From: Escherichia coli
GTDB taxonomy: Bacteria; Pseudomonadota; Gammaproteobacteria; Enterobacterales; Enterobacteriaceae
Direction: 5' to 3' (one strand)
Length of the DNA stretch: 64,000 nt
Assembly (NCBI RefSeq): GCF_030384885.1
Contig: NZ_CP128613.1
In this document: in pieces, positions 57,978 to 62,899 of the stretch
How positions within the stretch are numbered: the first letter of the stretch is position 1
Layout of the letters: each line of letters opens with the position of its first letter
Made by a program: the position numbers and the translations under genes
The notes under the pieces: model-generated
What the model was told of the DNA's origin: nothing
Databases searched by the model: none
Seen by the model: the letters and a program-made list of their open reading frames with translations, nothing else

Positions 57978-59327
57978 TTGGCGGGGTTTAACATCAAACA
58001 TTGGTTTGCAGATGGCGCGTTTCGCACCATTATTCGCAATAGCGCCTGGTTAGGCTCCAGTAATGTCGTGAGCGCTTTGCTGGGTCTGTTGGCGCTCTCG
58101 TGTGCCGGTAAAGGGATGACGCCCGCCATGTTTGGCGTACTGGTGATTGTGCAATCGTACGCCAAGTCGATCAGCGATTTTATTAAGTTTCAGACATGGC
58201 AGCTGGTGGTTCAGTACGGAACGCCAGCCTTGACCAATAATAATCCGCAGCAATTTCGCAATGTCGTCTCATTTTCCTTCTCGTTGGATATCGTCAGCGG
58301 CGCGGTGGCGATTGTCGGCGGCATTGCCTTACTCCCTTTTCTTTCCCATTCATTAGGTCTGGATGACCAAAGCTTTTGGCTGGCAGCGCTGTATTGCACG
58401 CTCATTCCTTCAATGGCTTCCTCCACACCGACCGGCATTCTGCGTGCGGTAGATCGCTTCGATTTGATTGCTGTACAGCAGGCGACGAAACCTTTTCTGC
58501 GCGCAGCGGGGAGCGTCGTAGCCTGGTATTTTGATTTTGGTTTTGCGGGTTTTGTTATTGCCTGGTACGCATCGAATCTGGTTGGCGGCACCATGTACTG
58601 GTGGTTTGCCGCGCGCGAATTACGCCGCAGAAATATCCATAACGCCTTCAAATTGAATCTGTTTGAGTCTGCCCGACACATTAAAGGCGCGTGGAGTTTT
58701 GTCTGGTCAACCAACATTGCCCACTCCATCTGGTCGGCACGTAACTCGTGCAGCACAGTGTTGGTGGGGATCGTGTTAGGACCCGCTGCCGCCGGGTTAT
58801 TTAAAATCGCCATGACATTCTTCGATGCCGCCGGAACGCCAGCGGGTTTACTGGGCAAAAGTTTTTACCCAGAGGTAATGCGTTTAGATCCGCGTACCAC
58901 CAGACCGTGGTTGTTAGGCGTGAAGTCCGGTTTACTGGCGGGCGGAATCGGTATTCTGGTGGCGCTCGCGGTGTTGATCGTCGGCAAGCCGCTCATTTCG
59001 CTGGTGTTTGGCGTTAAGTATCTCGAAGCGTATGACCTGATTCAGGTAATGCTTGGCGCAATTGTGATTTCGATGCTGGGCTTCCCACAGGAGTCATTGC
59101 TATTGATGGCGGGAAAACAGCGCGCTTTTCTCGTGGCGCAAACCATCGCCTCAATCGGCTACATCGTATTGCTGTTCATGTTCTGTCATCTGTTTGGCGT
59201 GCTGGGGGCTGCATTTGCTTACTTCGGTGGGCAATGTCTGGATGTGGTGCTCTCGTTAATTCCAACCTTAAAGGCATTTTTTCAGCGCCATTCCTTGCTT
59301 TATAACGCAGCCGGAGAGAAATCCTGA
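57978..59327 (+). CDS. yghQ: Polytopic membrane protein YghQ (MOP flippase-like / polysaccharide biosynthesis protein family), apparently full length
   Basis: 449-aa ORF with about 12 hydrophobic segments; non-ATG start in the track, so the true start is uncertain. Confidence 0.8.
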   Translation: MAGFNIKHWFADGAFRTIIRNSAWLGSSNVVSALLGLLALSCAGKGMTPAMFGVLVIVQSYAKSISDFIKFQTWQLVVQYGTPALTNNNPQQFRNVVSFSFSLDIVSGAVAIVGGIALLPFLSHSLGLDDQSFWLAALYCTLIPSMASSTPTGILRAVDRFDLIAVQQATKPFLRAAGSVVAWYFDFGFAGFVIAWYASNLVGGTMYWWFAARELRRRNIHNAFKLNLFESARHIKGAWSFVWSTNIAHSIWSARNSCSTVLVGIVLGPAAAGLFKIAMTFFDAAGTPAGLLGKSFYPEVMRLDPRTTRPWLLGVKSGLLAGGIGILVALAVLIVGKPLISLVFGVKYLEAYDLIQVMLGAIVISMLGFPQESLLLMAGKQRAFLVAQTIASIGYIVLLFMFCHLFGVLGAAFAYFGGQCLDVVLSLIPTLKAFFQRHSLLYNAAGEKS

Positions 59328-60151
59328 TGATGAGAAAATATTTCCCGCTTGAGGCGAGCGAGCGTCTATTTATTGCAGTTGAAGAAGATGATGTCGTTGA
59401 TGCGCAGGTCAGTTTACCGCCGACTATCGCAACAGGTTGTACCACCGAAATCATTCATGATAATTACGCGTTATGCCTGCAATTCTGGCTGAATGGCGTT
59501 GATCGTCAGGAATTACTGCGTTTAATCCACAAACAAGCCAAAGGCGAGGGGCTTACGGCTGACGAGCGTAAACAGTTTAAATATATGCGGGCGCGTTATA
59601 AGCATCTGCGTTTCGCTCAGCGACTGTATCTGAAAAAACACAAGGCAGGATTTTTATTCGGCAAAACGACGGTATGTCTGGGCCATTTTCAGGATGGTTT
59701 CCGTAACGGTAAAAAAAATATTGTGTCGTATTACGGCAACCTGTTACGGATTTATTTAAGCTCTCCGGTCTGGTCGTTGGTGAACTATTCATTACGCCAT
59801 AGCCAGTTAGAAAGCGTAAGCGGTTTTATTGCCTATCGGCAAAAGCAAATGCATACCCTGAAAGAGATAATTGCCAAACCGCGACTAACCGGCAGGGAAT
59901 TTCATGATGTGCGAAAAATCATCAGCCAGCAGGTTTCTTATTACGACACCCTAAGATCGCTTGATCCTGAAAAAAAAGAAGCGTTACAGATTTCCCGCTT
60001 CCTCGCCGCCATTAATGGCCTGATGGGGGATAAACACGACGACATGGTGGCGGATGATATGGAAAACCGCCAGTCGTATGATGCACCGATGGCGCTGGAT
60101 AGCGATATTCGTCAGCGCTTAGAACTGCTGATTTCGCGTTTTCCGCTATAA
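59327..60151 (+). CDS. Hypothetical soluble protein, 274 aa
   Basis: ATG overlaps the yghQ stop (tgatgatga); no recognisable motifs by eye. Confidence 0.6.
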   Translation: MMRKYFPLEASERLFIAVEEDDVVDAQVSLPPTIATGCTTEIIHDNYALCLQFWLNGVDRQELLRLIHKQAKGEGLTADERKQFKYMRARYKHLRFAQRLYLKKHKAGFLFGKTTVCLGHFQDGFRNGKKNIVSYYGNLLRIYLSSPVWSLVNYSLRHSQLESVSGFIAYRQKQMHTLKEIIAKPRLTGREFHDVRKIISQQVSYYDTLRSLDPEKKEALQISRFLAAINGLMGDKHDDMVADDMENRQSYDAPMALDSDIRQRLELLISRFPL

Positions 60152-60159
60152 CCGGAGCA

Positions 60160-60723: not shown

Positions 60724-60752
60724 AAATTCAAAGGATTGAGGGCGTTAGTGAG

Positions 60753-61823
60753 ATGAAGCTGGTTGAACACTACATCATGCGTGGTACTCGCCGTCTGGTG
60801 CTGATTATCGTCGGTTTTCTGATCTTTATTTTCGCCAGCTACTCCGCACAGCGTTATCTGACCGAAGCGGCAAATGGGACATTAGCTCTTGATGTTGTGC
60901 TGGATATTGTTTTCTACAAGGTGCTGATTGCACTGGAGATGTTGTTACCTGTTGGACTGTATGTGTCAGTTGGCGTGACGCTAGGGCAGATGTATACCGA
61001 CTCGGAAATTACCGCTATTTCTGCGGCGGGGGGGAGTCCGGGACGCTTGTACAAAGCCGTTCTTTATCTGGCGATACCGCTAAGTATTTTTGTCACCCTT
61101 CTGTCGATGTATGGTCGTCCGTGGGCTTATGCGCAGATTTATCAACTGGAGCAACAGTCGCAGTCGGAGCTGGATGTTCGCCAGTTGCGGGCAAAGAAAT
61201 TTAACACTAACGATAACGGACGAATGATCCTTTCGCAGACGGTTGATCAGGATAATAATCGCCTGACTGACGTGCTGATTTATACTTCTACTGCCAATCG
61301 AACCCGTATTTTCCGCGCCCGTTCGGTTGATGTAGTTGACCCATCACCCGAGAAACCGACCGTTATGTTGCATAACGGGACCGCCTATCTTCTCGATCAT
61401 CAGGGACGTGACGACAACGAACAGATCTACCGTAATCTGCAATTGCATCTGAATCCGCTGGATCAAAGCCCTAACGTCAAACGCAAAGCAAAATCGGTCA
61501 CGGAGCTGGCGCGCTCCGCCTTTCCTGCCGATCATGCCGAACTGCAATGGCGACAAAGCCGTGGCCTGACAGCATTGTTGATGGCGCTGCTGGCCATTTC
61601 ATTAAGTCGGGTAAAACCGCGGCAAGGGCGATTTTCAACGTTATTGCCACTGACGTTGCTGTTTGTTGCCATTTTTTATGGCGGCGACGTCTGCCGTACG
61701 CTGGTGGCTAACGGCGCGATTCCCCTCATTCCTGGTTTGTGGTTAGTACCCGGACTCATGCTAATGGGCCTGCTGATGCTGGTCGCACGCGACTTCTCTT
61801 TGCTGCAGAAATTTTCCCGATGA
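60753..61823 (+). CDS. LptF-like permease (YjgP/YjgQ family), accessory paralog
   Basis: 356 aa; N-terminal TM helices, a periplasmic beta-jellyroll-sized insert and C-terminal TM helices, as in LptF/LptG. Confidence 0.7.
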   Translation: MKLVEHYIMRGTRRLVLIIVGFLIFIFASYSAQRYLTEAANGTLALDVVLDIVFYKVLIALEMLLPVGLYVSVGVTLGQMYTDSEITAISAAGGSPGRLYKAVLYLAIPLSIFVTLLSMYGRPWAYAQIYQLEQQSQSELDVRQLRAKKFNTNDNGRMILSQTVDQDNNRLTDVLIYTSTANRTRIFRARSVDVVDPSPEKPTVMLHNGTAYLLDHQGRDDNEQIYRNLQLHLNPLDQSPNVKRKAKSVTELARSAFPADHAELQWRQSRGLTALLMALLAISLSRVKPRQGRFSTLLPLTLLFVAIFYGGDVCRTLVANGAIPLIPGLWLVPGLMLMGLLMLVARDFSLLQKFSR

Positions 61824-62899
61824 ATGTTTTCAGTCGCTATTTAATCCGTCATCTCTTTCTCGGTTTTGCCGCCGCCGCAGGGCTATTGCTGCCGCTTTTT
61901 ACTACCTTCAACCTGATTAACGAACTGGATGATGTCAGCCCGGGTGGTTATCGCTGGACTCAGGCGGTGCTGGTGGTGCTGATGACCTTACCGCGCACAC
62001 TGGTCGAACTTTCGCCGTTTATCGCCTTATTGGGGGGGATTGTCGGCTTGGGGCAGTTATCGAAAAACAGTGAGCTTACCGCCATTCGCAGCACGGGGTT
62101 TTCTATCTTCCGTATTGCACTGGTGGCGCTGGTTGCCGGGATATTGTGGACTGTTTCATTAGGCGCGATAGATGAGTGGGTGGCGTCGCCATTGCAGCAA
62201 CAGGCGCTGCAAATCAAATCGACTGCCACTGCGTTGGGGGAGGACGATGACATTACCGGCAATATGCTGTGGGCCAGGCGTGGTAATGAATTTGTGACGG
62301 TGAAATCGCTGAACGAGCAGGGCCAGCCGGTGGGCGTGGAGATATTTCATTACCGCGACGATCTCTCGCTCGAATCCTACATTTATGCACGCAGTGCCAC
62401 CATTGAAGACGACAAAACGTGGATCCTGCATGGTGTGAATCATAAAAAATGGCTGAATGGCAAAGAAACGCTGGAAACATCTGATAATCTTGCCTGGCAA
62501 TCGGCCTTCACCAGTATGAATCTTGAAGAGTTATCGATGCCGGGAAATACTTTTTCTGTCCGTCAACTTAATCATTACATCCATTATTTGCAGGAAACCG
62601 GGCAACCCAGCAGCGAATACCGCCTTGCACTGTGGGAAAAACTGGGACAACCCATCTTGACCCTGGCGATGATTTTGCTGGCTGTGCCGTTTACCTTTAG
62701 TGCCCCGCGTTCGCCTGGGATGGGTAGCCGTCTCGCTGTAGGCGTCATCGTGGGCTTACTCACCTGGATCAGCTATCAAATCATGGTCAATCTGGGATTG
62801 CTATTTGCGTTGAGCGCACCTGTTACCGCGCTCGGTTTACCGATAGCGTTTATGCTGGTGGCGTTGAGCCTGGTGTATTGGTATGACAGTCAACATTAA
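61820..62899 (+). CDS. LptG-like permease (YjgP/YjgQ family), accessory paralog
   Basis: 359 aa from the internal Met MNVFSRYLIRHLFLGF; start overlaps the stop of the preceding permease gene (ATGA). Confidence 0.7.
   Translation: MNVFSRYLIRHLFLGFAAAAGLLLPLFTTFNLINELDDVSPGGYRWTQAVLVVLMTLPRTLVELSPFIALLGGIVGLGQLSKNSELTAIRSTGFSIFRIALVALVAGILWTVSLGAIDEWVASPLQQQALQIKSTATALGEDDDITGNMLWARRGNEFVTVKSLNEQGQPVGVEIFHYRDDLSLESYIYARSATIEDDKTWILHGVNHKKWLNGKETLETSDNLAWQSAFTSMNLEELSMPGNTFSVRQLNHYIHYLQETGQPSSEYRLALWEKLGQPILTLAMILLAVPFTFSAPRSPGMGSRLAVGVIVGLLTWISYQIMVNLGLLFALSAPVTALGLPIAFMLVALSLVYWYDSQH

What the first reader, a model, noticed from the sequence alone, without database searches (positions are those of the whole stretch)
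59327..62899. Accessory operon extending yghSRQ with an unknown protein, a YtfJ-like protein and an LptF/LptG-like permease pair
Downstream of yghQ and translationally coupled to it (overlapping stop/start) are a 274-aa unknown protein, a secreted YtfJ paralog and two YjgP/YjgQ-family permeases whose genes overlap by 4 nt. From memory, K-12 has an IS5 and a pseudogene (yghO) immediately beyond yghQ, so this module is probably lost there. An MOP-type flippase-like protein, a second LptFG-like transporter and three P-loop proteins together suggest an uncharacterised envelope glycolipid or lipid synthesis and export system.
Basis: partly seen in the sequence, partly recalled or inferred. Interest (0 to 1): 0.6.

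Follow-up and report, generated by a model that had tools for sequence, protein, structure and literature searches.

The report
E. coli sphingolipid locus: export half
These four genes belong to a 13-gene sphingolipid (ceramide) synthesis and export locus that about three quarters of complete E. coli genomes carry and K-12 has deleted; they encode a second LptF/LptG-type lipid extractor, a cysteine-free periplasmic thioredoxin-fold protein, and a previously unrecognised CHAD-fold (polyphosphate-binding-type) protein.

Summary
Four intact, tightly packed ORFs follow yghQ: a 274-aa protein, a YtfJ paralog, and an LptF-like/LptG-like pair overlapping by 4 nt. K-12 lacks them through an IS5-associated 8.4-kb deletion.

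The convergent gene at 62934 is spt (serine palmitoyltransferase), followed by acpR, cerR, aasR and yghO. This is the E. coli sphingolipid locus. Its synthesis enzymes were characterised in BL21. LptF2/LptG2 paralogs in the Caulobacter sphingolipid locus were shown in a 2026 preprint to be required for sphingolipid transport and to bind LptB; that preprint also draws the E. coli UTI89 locus.

New here:
- In 70 of 79 loci across four proteobacterial groups it sits with YghQ and with YghS/R/T-type P-loop kinases. That pairing resembles archaeal PPK3 operons.
- YtfJ2 has a thioredoxin fold but no cysteine.
- LptF2/G2 keep the LptB-coupling glutamates but replace or charge-reverse four LptG residues that contact LPS.
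- All genes are under purifying selection (dN/dS 0.02–0.14).

Verdict: a real, functional sphingolipid export and head-group module, an enterobacterial variant of a known system. Its lipid product is still unknown.

The parts
55564..56256 (-). yghT: P-loop kinase-like protein, paralog of YghS and YghR, divergently transcribed
   Evidence: ORF. It is 37% identical to YghS and 34% to YghR. Similarity to dTMP kinase is weak (E 6e-6, below the cutoff). It is conserved next to the locus in Enterobacterales and Rhodanobacteraceae.
56430..57143 (+). yghS: first gene of the plus-strand operon, P-loop kinase-like protein
   Evidence: motifs GxDGxGKST, DRYPQ, RKPDH. No Pfam family beyond the P-loop. A promoter-like site lies at 56352-56380 (consensus match only).
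57174..57932 (+). yghR: P-loop kinase-like paralog
   Evidence: (dTMP kinase E 2.5e-7, below the cutoff). No relative in the PDB by sequence.
57978..59327 (+). yghQ: MOP/Polysacc_synt-type multi-pass membrane protein, a candidate flippase
   Evidence: Weak MOP flippase match (E 1.4e-8). The Serratia orthologue carries PF13440/PF01943. Caulobacter CC_1166 in the sphingolipid locus has the same InterPro type. dN/dS 0.02-0.03.
59327..60151 (+). 274-aa cytoplasmic all-helical protein with a CHAD fold (here called Hyp274), translationally coupled to yghQ
60160..60723 (+). ytfJ2: secreted YtfJ-family paralog, thioredoxin-like fold without cysteines (PGAP starts it at 60163)
60753..61823 (+). lptF2: LptF-type permease, intact in the window
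   Evidence: TIGR04407, 323 bits. Full-length alignment to solved LptF chains. 29% identical to K-12 LptF. The coupling-helix E84 equivalent (E85) is invariant, R33 is kept, K317 becomes R, K322 becomes N. dN/dS 0.04-0.08. Contains a G7 run at 61028-61034.
61820..62899 (+). lptG2: LptG-type permease; its start overlaps the lptF2 stop (ATGA)
   Evidence: TIGR04408, 308 bits. 28% identical to K-12 LptG over 350 residues. The E88 equivalent (E85) is invariant. K62 becomes R and R136 becomes K/R (charge kept). K34 becomes N/D/T, K40 becomes D/E, K41 becomes D, R133 becomes L/Q and I66 becomes D/N in 36 orthologues.
62934..64000 (-). spt (serine palmitoyltransferase): 3' two thirds of the gene, convergent with lptG2, runs off the window end
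   Evidence: ORF 62934-63974. Annotated spt in the near-identical genome, followed by acpR, cerR, aasR and then yghO. E. coli BL21 Spt, AcpR and AasR were assayed in PMC9386255.

Best explanation
The four genes are the distal part of the yghS-yghR-yghQ-hyp274-ytfJ2-lptF2-lptG2 operon. That operon lies convergent to spt-acpR-cerR-aasR and next to yghO. Together the 13 genes form the enterobacterial sphingolipid locus.

Proposed working:
1. AasR loads a fatty acid on AcpR, and Spt condenses it with serine. These steps were shown for the BL21 enzymes in the literature. YghO (the bCerS/aca homologue) and CerR then complete ceramide on the cytoplasmic side. This step is inferred by homology.
2. The three dTMP-kinase-like P-loop paralogs YghS/R/T and the CHAD-fold protein Hyp274 build or hold a phosphate-rich anionic head group. 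The MOP-type protein YghQ, to which hyp274 is translationally coupled, flips the lipid to the periplasmic leaflet. This step is inferred from conserved gene linkage and fold only.
3. LptF2/LptG2 form the membrane part of an ABC extractor. No ATPase gene lies in the locus, so the extractor would dock on the housekeeping LptB dimer, pull the sphingolipid out of the inner membrane and feed it towards the outer membrane. This step is inferred from the Caulobacter LptF2/G2 result and from the conserved coupling-helix glutamates.
4. YtfJ2 is a periplasmic, redox-inactive thioredoxin-fold accessory. In rearranged genomes it stays with yghQ-hyp274. Its role is unassigned; binding or processing of the head group is a guess.
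For: Locus identity and linkage:
- spt, acpR, cerR, aasR and yghO directly flank the module.
- The same 13 genes stay together in nearly all untruncated loci of the 44 enterobacterial loci examined, although the blocks are shuffled. That argues for functional linkage rather than inherited order.

Literature:
- E. coli BL21 Spt/AcpR/AasR make 3-oxo-sphinganine, and yghO is listed as the N-acyltransferase.
- Caulobacter LptF2/G2/C2 could be deleted only when spt or cpgB was absent, and LptF2 and LptG2 co-purify with each other and with LptB. No second lptB exists there, and the E. coli UTI89 locus is drawn in the same figure.

LptF2/G2:
- Full-length family matches.
- The coupling-helix Glu is invariant in 36-37 orthologues (residue roles).
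- One phosphate-binding cluster is kept (LptF R33; LptG K62 to R; R136 to K/R), while K34, K40, K41 and R133 are lost or charge-reversed (residue roles). This fits a different, smaller anionic lipid.

Hyp274:
- CHAD fold with invariant or near-invariant basic and His residues.
- Found with YghQ and YghRST in Enterobacterales, Rhodanobacteraceae, Sphingomonadales and Acetobacteraceae. My recollection is that these lineages make sphingolipids; within the fetched +/-10 kb, spt was seen only in the first two groups.
- The Sulfolobus PPK3 operon likewise pairs two dTMP-kinase paralogs with a CHAD protein.

Selection and spread:
- dN/dS 0.02-0.14 with no internal stops.
- Present in 76% of complete E. 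coli genomes.
Against: - I found no paper describing an E. coli sphingolipid product. The locus could be silent under laboratory conditions.
- Orthology of the E. coli LptF2/G2 to Caulobacter CCNA_01214/01213 was not tested, because I could not obtain those sequences.
- The E. coli locus has no LptC2, which Caulobacter genetics implicate in transport.
- YghRST match dTMP kinase only weakly and below the curated cutoffs. Hyp274 does not match the CHAD Pfam model, and Foldseek gave no significant PDB hit. The head-group step is therefore the weakest link.
- In Sphingomonadales and Acetobacteraceae the YghRST-YghQ-Hyp274 genes are not next to spt within 10 kb. Their tie to sphingolipids there rests on phyletic pattern only.
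Confidence: 0.7

Rival explanations
1. LptF2/LptG2 are a redundant or condition-specific second LPS exporter, as the PGAP names ('LPS export ABC transporter permease LptF/LptG') imply. Under this reading the neighbouring genes modify LPS.
For: Both proteins exceed the curated equivalog cutoffs of TIGR04407 and TIGR04408. The coupling-helix Glu, LptF R33 and LptG K62/R136-type charges are kept. YghQ is named 'lipopolysaccharide biosynthesis protein'.
Against: They are only 28-29% identical to the housekeeping pair in the same species. Four LptG residues that contact the lipid A phosphates or the inner core are replaced, three of them by acidic or neutral residues, and K34E is lethal in LptG. 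The genes travel with spt in every enterobacterial genus sampled. The Caulobacter paralogs are conditionally essential only when anionic sphingolipid is made.
Confidence: 0.06
2. The yghS-lptG2 operon makes and exports a non-sphingolipid phosphate-rich envelope molecule, for example a polyprenyl-phosphate-linked or polyphosphate-bearing compound. Its position beside spt would reflect co-regulated envelope remodelling rather than one pathway.
For: YghRST-YghQ-Hyp274 occur without spt within 10 kb in Sphingomonadales and Acetobacteraceae, and in a metagenomic contig together with PEMT and a nucleotidyltransferase. From my own knowledge, not checked here, MOP transporters usually flip polyprenyl-diphosphate-linked substrates. 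CHAD domains bind inorganic polyphosphate (paper title and abstract).
Against: In Rhodanobacteraceae the aasR-cerR-acpR-spt genes are inserted between yghR and yghQ on the same strand. In Enterobacterales all 13 genes stay together through several rearrangements. My recollection is that the lineages carrying Hyp274 are sphingolipid producers. No polyprenyl-phosphate transferase or glycosyltransferase is annotated in the locus.
Confidence: 0.14
3. The locus is a cryptic remnant in E. coli: the genes are carried but not used, which would explain why K-12 lost them without obvious cost.
For: K-12 lacks 8.4 kb of the locus and grows normally. About 24% of complete genomes lack the module. One close relative of the window strain has a frameshift in lptF2, and another strain has an IS3-family transposase annotated within the matched 56000-64000 region, where the match is split into two pieces. 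No E. coli sphingolipid was found in the papers searched.
Against: dN/dS is 0.02-0.14 with no internal stops, both across E. coli lineages and against other Escherichia species. Gene content is conserved across many enterobacterial genera. The BL21 enzymes are active when expressed.
Confidence: 0.1

Closest known systems
Caulobacter crescentus sphingolipid locus transport genes LptF2 (CCNA_01214), LptG2 (CCNA_01213), LptC2 (CCNA_01226) and the putative flippase CC_1166 (bioRxiv 10.64898/2026.04.12.717747; PMC11324152)
   Same: - A second LptF/LptG pair is encoded beside spt-acpR-cerR-aasR and the ceramide synthase.
- No second lptB lies in the locus.
- A Polysacc_synt/MOP-type membrane protein is present in the same locus.
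- The E. coli UTI89 locus is drawn alongside in that preprint.
   Different: - E. coli has no LptC2 in the locus.
- It has none of the Caulobacter head-group genes (cpgA, cpgB, cpgC, CC_1152, CC_1153, CC_1158). CpgB is a DAGK/LCB5-type kinase unrelated to YghRST.
- In their place E. coli has three P-loop kinase paralogs, a CHAD-fold protein and a YtfJ paralog.
- Sequence orthology of the two LptF2/G2 pairs was not tested here.
- Nothing has been done experimentally with the E. coli transport genes.
Housekeeping LptB2FG(C) lipopolysaccharide extractor of E. coli and relatives (PDB 6MHU, 6MIT, 5X5Y; PMC6744409, PMC5548808)
   Same: - Same family, and the alignment runs the full length.
- Adjacent F-G gene pair.
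- Coupling-helix glutamates E84/E88 are conserved.
- LptF R33, LptG K62 (as R) and R136 (as K/R) are conserved.
- The TM1 tyrosines are conserved.
   Different: - Only 28-29% identity.
- LptG K34, K40, K41 and R133, and LptF K322 and Q248, are replaced. These residues contact the lipid A phosphates or the inner core.
- K40 and K41 are always acidic in the LptG2 clade.
- LptF2 scores better against Pseudomonas and Vibrio LptF than against E. coli LptF, so it is not a recent in-lineage duplicate.
- The pair is dispensable in K-12.
CHAD domain proteins (PDB 6QV5, 3E0S, 6RN5; Pfam PF05235), which bind inorganic polyphosphate (PMC6537752)
   Same: - Repeated motif pairs rich in conserved His, Arg and Lys.
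- Stand-alone size of about 280 aa.
- Encoded beside P-loop kinases.
   Different: - No match to the Pfam CHAD model at E <= 10.
- 9-17% identity to solved CHAD domains.
- Encoded with a MOP transporter and sphingolipid genes rather than with PPK/PPX/TTM genes.
- Ligand untested.
PPK3 polyphosphate kinase operon of Sulfolobus acidocaldarius (saci_2017-2021; PMC12995831)
   Same: - An operon combining two or more dTMP-kinase-superfamily paralogs with a CHAD protein.
- In PPK3 the paralogs act as catalytic plus regulatory subunits.
- Both sets were mis-annotated as 'thymidylate kinase'.
   Different: - No PPX or SixA in the E. coli locus.
- E. coli already has PPK1 (my own knowledge, not checked here).
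- YghRST similarity to dTMP kinases is weak, and their membership in the PPK3 clade is untested.
- The module is tied to a membrane transporter and lipid genes.
YtfJ (b4216) of E. coli K-12, family TIGR01626/PF09695, function unknown
   Same: 54% identity, same length, signal peptide, and the same invariant AGRxSAKxxN motif.
   Different: The paralog is encoded directly after yghQ-hyp274 in all 44 enterobacterial loci sampled. The housekeeping copy sits elsewhere, between ytfI and ytfK.

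Membership tests
LptF/LptG permease family (PF03739; TIGR04407, TIGR04408) | Full-length match to the family HMMs above the curated cutoff | tested here: met
   LptF2 scores 323 bits against a cutoff of 230, covering profile positions 2-346 of 347. LptG2 scores 308 bits against 240, covering 2-350 of 351.
LptF/LptG permease family (PF03739; TIGR04407, TIGR04408) | End-to-end alignment with solved LptF/LptG chains, covering the transmembrane helices and the periplasmic domain | tested here: met
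   LptF2 residues 4-353 align to 6mjp_F and LptG2 residues 3-351 align to 6mhu_G. Transmembrane topology was not computed separately.
LptF/LptG permease family (PF03739; TIGR04407, TIGR04408) | Coupling-helix glutamate that engages LptB (LptF E84, LptG E88) | tested here: met
   E85 in LptF2 and E85 in LptG2 are invariant in 37 and 36 sequences. Their role is taken from PMC5548808.
LPS exporter proper (equivalog sense: the substrate is lipid A-core) | Charged residues that bind the lipid A phosphates and inner core (LptG K34, K40, K41, K62, R133, R136; LptF R33, K317, K322) | tested here: not met
   Kept: R33, K62 (as R), R136 (as K/R), K317 (as R). Lost or reversed: K34 to N/D/T, K40 to D/E, K41 to D, R133 to L/Q, K322 to N (roles).
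LPS exporter proper (equivalog sense: the substrate is lipid A-core) | Binds LptB2 and transports LPS | not testable with these tools
   Needs pull-down and complementation experiments.
Sphingolipid-locus LptF2/LptG2 (Caulobacter type) | Encoded within or next to the spt-acpR-cerR-aasR-cerS cluster | tested here: met
   lptG2 ends 34 nt from the convergent spt. The linkage is kept in nearly all untruncated loci of the 44 enterobacterial loci examined.
Sphingolipid-locus LptF2/LptG2 (Caulobacter type) | Sequence orthology to CCNA_01214 and CCNA_01213 | not tested
   No Caulobacter sequence could be fetched with the remaining caps. The claim rests on Fig. 2B of the preprint.
Sphingolipid-locus LptF2/LptG2 (Caulobacter type) | Accompanied by an LptC2 paralog in the locus | tested here: not met
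   All annotated genes of the E. coli locus are accounted for and none is named LptC-like. YtfJ2 has a thioredoxin fold; the beta-jellyroll expected of LptC is from my own knowledge.
Sphingolipid-locus LptF2/LptG2 (Caulobacter type) | Deletable only when anionic sphingolipid synthesis is blocked | not testable with these tools
   Genetic experiment.
CHAD domain (PF05235) | Match to the Pfam model | tested here: not met
   No CHAD hit at E <= 10.
CHAD domain (PF05235) | Two four-helix-bundle CHAD fold | tested here: met
   [not shown]
CHAD domain (PF05235) | Conserved histidines and basic residues | tested here: met
   Invariant R88, H193 and R196. Conserved in at least 90% of sequences: K85, K92, R95, H105, K197 and H237, in 61 sequences at 22-56% identity. 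Their position on the polyP-binding surface was not mapped.
CHAD domain (PF05235) | Binds inorganic polyphosphate | not testable with these tools
   Needs a binding assay.
YtfJ family (TIGR01626, PF09695) | HMM match above the cutoff, plus a secretion signal | tested here: met
   212 bits against a cutoff of 151. PF09695 is present on all homologues. The N-terminal signal-like sequence ends in VQA.
Thiol-disulfide oxidoreductase / peroxiredoxin (thioredoxin-fold enzymes) | Catalytic cysteine(s) at the N-terminus of helix 1 | tested here: not met
   [not shown]
PPK3-type polyphosphate kinase module | Two or more dTMP-kinase-superfamily paralogs encoded together with a CHAD protein | tested here: inconclusive
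   The three paralogs are 34-43% identical to each other. They hit dTMP kinase models only at E 1e-5 to 1e-7, below the cutoffs. The CHAD partner is recognised by fold only. No PPX or SixA gene is nearby.
PPK3-type polyphosphate kinase module | Membership in the PPK3 clade, and polyphosphate kinase activity | not tested
   No PPK3 sequences were available, and activity needs an assay.

The most novel reading that the evidence does not exclude
The conserved four-part set of YghS/R/T dTMP-kinase-like paralogs, the CHAD-fold protein Hyp274 and the MOP-type protein YghQ is a PPK3-like oligo/polyphosphate-handling machine dedicated to a lipid. It would put a pyro-, oligo- or polyphosphate-containing head group on ceramide, or use polyphosphate as the phosphoryl donor. 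YghQ would flip the product, and in Enterobacterales LptF2G2-LptB would then carry it to the outer membrane. Most E. coli strains, though not K-12, would then display a previously unseen, highly anionic phosphosphingolipid on their surface.
Probability: 0.15. Interest if true: 0.85.

Novelty: new variant of a known kind. Interest (0 to 1): 0.55.

Why it matters
- E. coli is the reference organism for outer-membrane lipid transport, yet K-12 has deleted this locus. A second LptFG-type extractor and a whole lipid class have therefore been invisible in the standard model.
- If LptF2G2 share LptB and the Lpt bridge with LPS, as in Caulobacter, then the many E. coli strains that carry the locus, pathogens included, run two substrates through a machine that is an antibiotic target.
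- The enterobacterial head-group genes differ from those of Caulobacter, so the E. coli sphingolipid is probably a new structure. An anionic surface sphingolipid could affect polymyxin and bile sensitivity and host recognition, as CPG2 does in Caulobacter.
- Recognising the 274-aa protein as a CHAD fold, always partnered with dTMP-kinase-like proteins, gives a concrete and testable biochemical lead for six genes of unknown function: yghQ, yghR, yghS, yghT, hyp274 and ytfJ2.

Tried and rejected
- The search for related loci with the 61-sequence alignment A1 failed because no stretch was conserved enough. I repeated it with the 14 closest sequences.
- PDB sequence searches found nothing useful for YghS, YghR, the YghRST profile or YtfJ2. 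Pfam on YghRST gave only P-loop noise.
- I considered YtfJ2 as a stand-in for the missing LptC2 and rejected it on fold: it is thioredoxin-like, not the beta-jellyroll expected of LptC.
- I considered YghRST as the missing ABC ATPase for LptF2G2 and rejected it. Only the Walker A region matches ABC models, and the rest aligns weakly with dTMP kinases, including a DRYPQ motif.
- I considered Caulobacter CpgB as a homologue of YghRST and rejected it, because CpgB is an LCB5/DAGK-type kinase with a GGDG motif.
- The homology search with LptG2 returned only enterobacterial orthologues among the 120 listed of 266 hits, so it could not place the pair relative to Caulobacter.
- My simple ORF caller on the high-GC alphaproteobacterial loci produced spurious wrong-strand ORFs. 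I used only the tblastn table for those loci.
- The 'frameshifted lptF' flag in NZ_CP027579 does not apply to the window: that strain has G6 where the window has G7.
- GC content shows no island signature.
- Stankeviciute et al. 2022 (PMC8891067) is not held.
- Literature searches for an E. coli sphingolipid product found none.

Full report
**1. What is in the sequence**

yghQ (57978-59327) ends in TGA, and its last base is the A of the ATG of a 274-aa ORF (59327-60151). After 8 nt carrying a GGAG comes a 187-aa ORF (60160-60723). After 29 nt comes a 356-aa ORF (60753-61823), whose stop overlaps the ATG of a 359-aa ORF (61820-62899) as ATGA. The consensus scan found no terminator-like or promoter-like excess over shuffles inside this run.

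NCBIfam places the last three ORFs above curated cutoffs in the YtfJ family (212 bits), LptF (323 bits) and LptG (308 bits). The 274-aa protein matches nothing in NCBIfam or Pfam. YghT, YghS and YghR are mutual paralogs, 34-43% identical. They resemble dTMP kinases only weakly and below cutoff.

**2. The neighbour that identifies the system**

A megablast against complete E. coli genomes, and the annotation of a near-identical genome, show what lies downstream. The minus-strand ORF that starts 34 nt after lptG2 and runs off the window is spt, serine palmitoyltransferase. It is followed by an acyl carrier protein, an NAD-dependent epimerase/dehydratase-family protein, a fatty acyl-AMP ligase and, divergently, yghO.

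This is the cluster described for E. coli BL21(DE3) as ECD_02850-02854, meaning yghO/aca, aasR, epi/cerR, acpR and spt. For that cluster, Spt, AcpR and AasR were shown to make 3-oxo-sphinganine (PMC9386255).

A 2026 preprint (10.64898/2026.04.12.717747) reports on the LptF, LptG and LptC paralogs of the Caulobacter sphingolipid locus:
- They could be deleted only when spt or the ceramide kinase cpgB is absent.
- LptF2 and LptG2 co-purify with each other and with the single LptB.
- Figure 2B draws the E. coli UTI89 locus next to those of Caulobacter and Sphingomonas.

An earlier paper had already proposed CC_1168, CC_1166, CC_1156 and CC_1155 as LptC2, a flippase, LptF2 and LptG2 (PMC11324152).

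**3. K-12 and distribution**

A K-12-type genome matches up to window 59046, inside yghQ. IS5 follows, and homology resumes about 40 nt inside yghO. The 8,370 missing bases removed the yghQ 3' end, the four genes of the finding and the whole spt operon.

At least 80% of 59327-62899 is present in 4103 of 5426 complete genomes. The module is therefore the majority state, not a rare accessory. GC content is unremarkable.

Between the window and an ST131 genome, and between the window and two loci titled Escherichia whittamii (L012) and E. coli SCPM-O-B-8794 (L010), dN/dS is 0.02-0.14 for yghQ, hyp274, ytfJ2, lptF2 and lptG2. No orthologue has an internal stop. These are working genes.

**4. The LptF2/LptG2 pair**

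Both proteins align end to end with solved LptF and LptG chains. They are only 29% and 28% identical to the K-12 housekeeping proteins. LptF2 scores better against Pseudomonas and Vibrio LptF than against E. coli LptF, which argues against a recent duplication.

I aligned 36-37 enterobacterial orthologues with the K-12 proteins and looked at residues whose roles are documented in PMC6744409 and PMC5548808.

| Residue in K-12 | Documented role | State in the LptF2/G2 clade |
|---|---|---|
| LptF E84, LptG E88 | coupling helix, contacts LptB | invariant Glu |
| LptF Y6, LptG Y10 | TM1, contacts LptB | kept |
| LptF R33 | binds 1'-phosphate | kept |
| LptG K62 | binds 1'-phosphate | R |
| LptG R136 | binds 1'-phosphate | K/R |
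| LptF K317 | binds 4'-phosphate | R |
| LptG K34 | binds 1'-phosphate | N/D/T |
| LptG K40 | binds 4'-phosphate | D/E |
| LptG K41 | contacts inner core | D |
| LptG R133 | binds 1'-phosphate | L/Q |
| LptF K322 | contacts inner core | N |
| LptG I66 | contacts acyl chains | D/N |

I read this as a cavity that can still dock on LptB and still holds one anionic group, but is no longer shaped for bis-phosphorylated lipid A with core. That reading is an inference.

No ABC ATPase gene is in the locus. YghRST are not ABC proteins, since only their Walker A region matches ABC models. Borrowing LptB, as shown in Caulobacter, is therefore the simplest model. No gene in the E. coli locus is annotated as LptC-like.

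**5. The 274-aa protein**

A full HMMER scan of 1.84 billion representatives found a small family: 195 clusters at E <= 0.001, most of them stand-alone proteins of about 280 aa. Alignments show repeated motifs, FKxIRARYKHLRFA / GxLQDAFRN and FHxxRKIxSQQV / INGLMGxxHD. R88, D123, H193, R196 and D238 are invariant, and several further Lys, Arg and His residues are nearly invariant.

**6. Who it travels with**

A scan of one genome per species returned 79 loci. I annotated them by tblastn with the 13 E. coli proteins.

| Group | Loci | Genes found with Hyp274 within 10 kb |
|---|---|---|
| Enterobacterales (Escherichia, Pseudocitrobacter, Hafnia, Serratia, Sodalis, Pantoea, Erwinia, Rosenbergiella, Mangrovibacter, some Citrobacter and others) | 44 | All 13 genes in most loci (37-44 of 44 per gene; the gaps are mostly in truncated loci); blocks are shuffled |
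| Rhodanobacteraceae | 5 | yghT, then yghS-yghR-aasR-cerR-acpR-spt-yghQ-hyp274; no YtfJ2 or LptF2G2 |
| Sphingomonadales | 20 | Only two or three YghRST paralogs, YghQ and Hyp274, usually as one operon; spt elsewhere |
| Acetobacteraceae | 6 | Only YghRST paralogs, YghQ and Hyp274; spt elsewhere |

The shuffled enterobacterial blocks are [yghT], [yghS-yghR], [yghQ-hyp274-ytfJ2], [lptF2-lptG2], [aasR-cerR-acpR-spt] and [yghO]. In several genera lptF2G2 sit on the opposite strand, away from yghQ-hyp274-ytfJ2.

Overall, YghQ and at least one YghRST paralog accompany Hyp274 in 70 of 79 loci. Several of the exceptions are truncated loci. The yghQ-hyp274 junction is tight wherever both lie on one strand: a 4-nt overlap in Serratia and in a Sphingomonas ORF call.

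A metagenomic contig carries two YghT-like genes (45-50% identical to the E. coli proteins), a Hyp274 homologue, a Polysacc_synt-type protein, a PEMT-family methyltransferase and an NTP_transf_3 nucleotidyltransferase.

So Hyp274 belongs functionally with YghQ and the kinases, not with the transporter. YtfJ2 is an enterobacterial addition to that sub-operon.

**7. A parallel that may explain the head-group genes**

In Sulfolobus, two 'thymidylate kinase' paralogs encoded with a CHAD protein, PPX and SixA form a heteromeric polyphosphate kinase called PPK3. One subunit is catalytic and the other regulatory (PMC12995831).

The E. coli set also has two or three dTMP-kinase-like paralogs with a CHAD-fold protein, but here they are coupled to a MOP-family membrane protein and lipid genes. 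Caulobacter makes its anionic head group with unrelated enzymes: CpgB is an LCB5/DAGK-type ceramide kinase, CpgA is PgsA-like, and CpgC has no known domains. None of these is annotated in the E. coli locus.

My working proposal is that YghRST with Hyp274 build or hold a phosphate-rich head group on ceramide, which YghQ then flips. This rests on gene linkage, fold and analogy only. YghRST could not be placed relative to PPK3, PPK2 or dTMP kinases with the tools left.

**8. YtfJ2**

It is therefore neither a redox enzyme nor, by fold, an LptC-like protein. I cannot assign a role. A periplasmic head-group-binding or processing function is a guess.

**9. Verdict**

The finding is real. Its general interpretation, an envelope lipid synthesis and export system lost in K-12, was right in direction. 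Its identity can be stated more precisely: it is the export and head-group half of the E. coli sphingolipid locus.

The LptF2/G2 idea is already in the literature for Caulobacter, and the E. coli locus has been drawn. The enterobacterial locus nevertheless differs in architecture. It has no LptC2 and no cpg genes. It has a CHAD-fold protein, three kinase paralogs and a YtfJ paralog.

I found no paper naming an E. coli sphingolipid or testing any of the seven plus-strand genes. I rate it a new variant of a known kind, of moderate interest. It also offers a specific, testable and more novel possibility: a PPK3-like phosphate-handling module acting on a lipid.

Noticed in passing
window 61028-61034 (inside lptF2, codons for the coupling-helix segment SAAGGS): The window has a run of seven G. 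The almost identical genome NZ_CP027579 (strain 2013C-4282) has six, which is why PGAP flags its lptF as 'frameshifted'. ST131 has GGGGGGC. Only about 13 complete genomes are at least 99% identical to the window over an 86-bp stretch around this tract; the tract itself was inspected in only three genomes. This could be real slippage or an assembly error.
   Followed up: partly
window 59327-60151 compared with L003 (ST131) 9344-10168: hyp274 is much more diverged between E. coli lineages than its neighbours: 93.0% nucleotide identity and dS 0.29, against 96.8-98.4% and dS 0.05-0.12 for yghQ, ytfJ2, lptF2 and lptG2. This suggests an old allelic split or recombination confined to this gene.
   Followed up: no
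L006 7464-13259 (metagenome contig SRR30545106_108208); also L007: A Hyp274 homologue sits with two YghT-like kinases (45-50% identical to the E. coli proteins), a PEMT-family methyltransferase, an NTP_transf_3 nucleotidyltransferase and a 510-aa Polysacc_synt protein. No spt lies within the 17 kb. This is a possible variant of the head-group module.
   Followed up: partly
L047 and L053 (Luteibacter), L086 (gammaproteobacterial MAG); proteins P0123, P0252, P0254, P0265, P0269: Two hyp274 hits lie side by side on the same strand in Luteibacter loci L047 and L053, and two hits on opposite strands in L086. The domain also occurs twice within a 564-aa protein and at the C-terminus of proteins of 660-1155 aa. 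The fusion partners were not examined.
   Followed up: no
window 55564-57932, 60753-62899 and the corresponding RefSeq annotation (L001): The PGAP names look over-specific. YghS and YghT are called 'dTMP kinase' although they score 25-31 bits against cutoffs of 83-193. The sphingolipid-locus pair is called 'LPS export ABC transporter permease LptF/LptG'.
   Followed up: yes
proteins P0032 and P0411; P0288: Database proteins exist that join a GspM domain to most of Hyp274, a GspC domain to most of LptG2, and YtfJ2 to an LptF fragment. These suggest further deletion or fusion variants of this region in some E. coli genomes, or gene-calling artefacts.
   Followed up: no
hit H2 (NZ_CM142790.1, strain GPEC1185): In this chicken isolate the match to the 56000-64000 region is split into two pieces, and an IS3-family transposase is annotated under it. 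This would be another independent disruption of the locus.
   Followed up: no
L004 13856-16919 (Serratia marcescens, downstream of lptG2): Directly after lptG2 come a 500-aa protein with DUF8093 and Phospholipase-like domains and two ankyrin-repeat proteins. They are absent from the other Serratia locus fetched (L005) and from E. coli.
   Followed up: no
About 680 of 5426 complete genomes give no megablast match at all to window 56000-64000, not even to yghS or yghT. A larger deletion than the K-12 one must therefore exist in some lineages. I could not list which ones.
   Followed up: no
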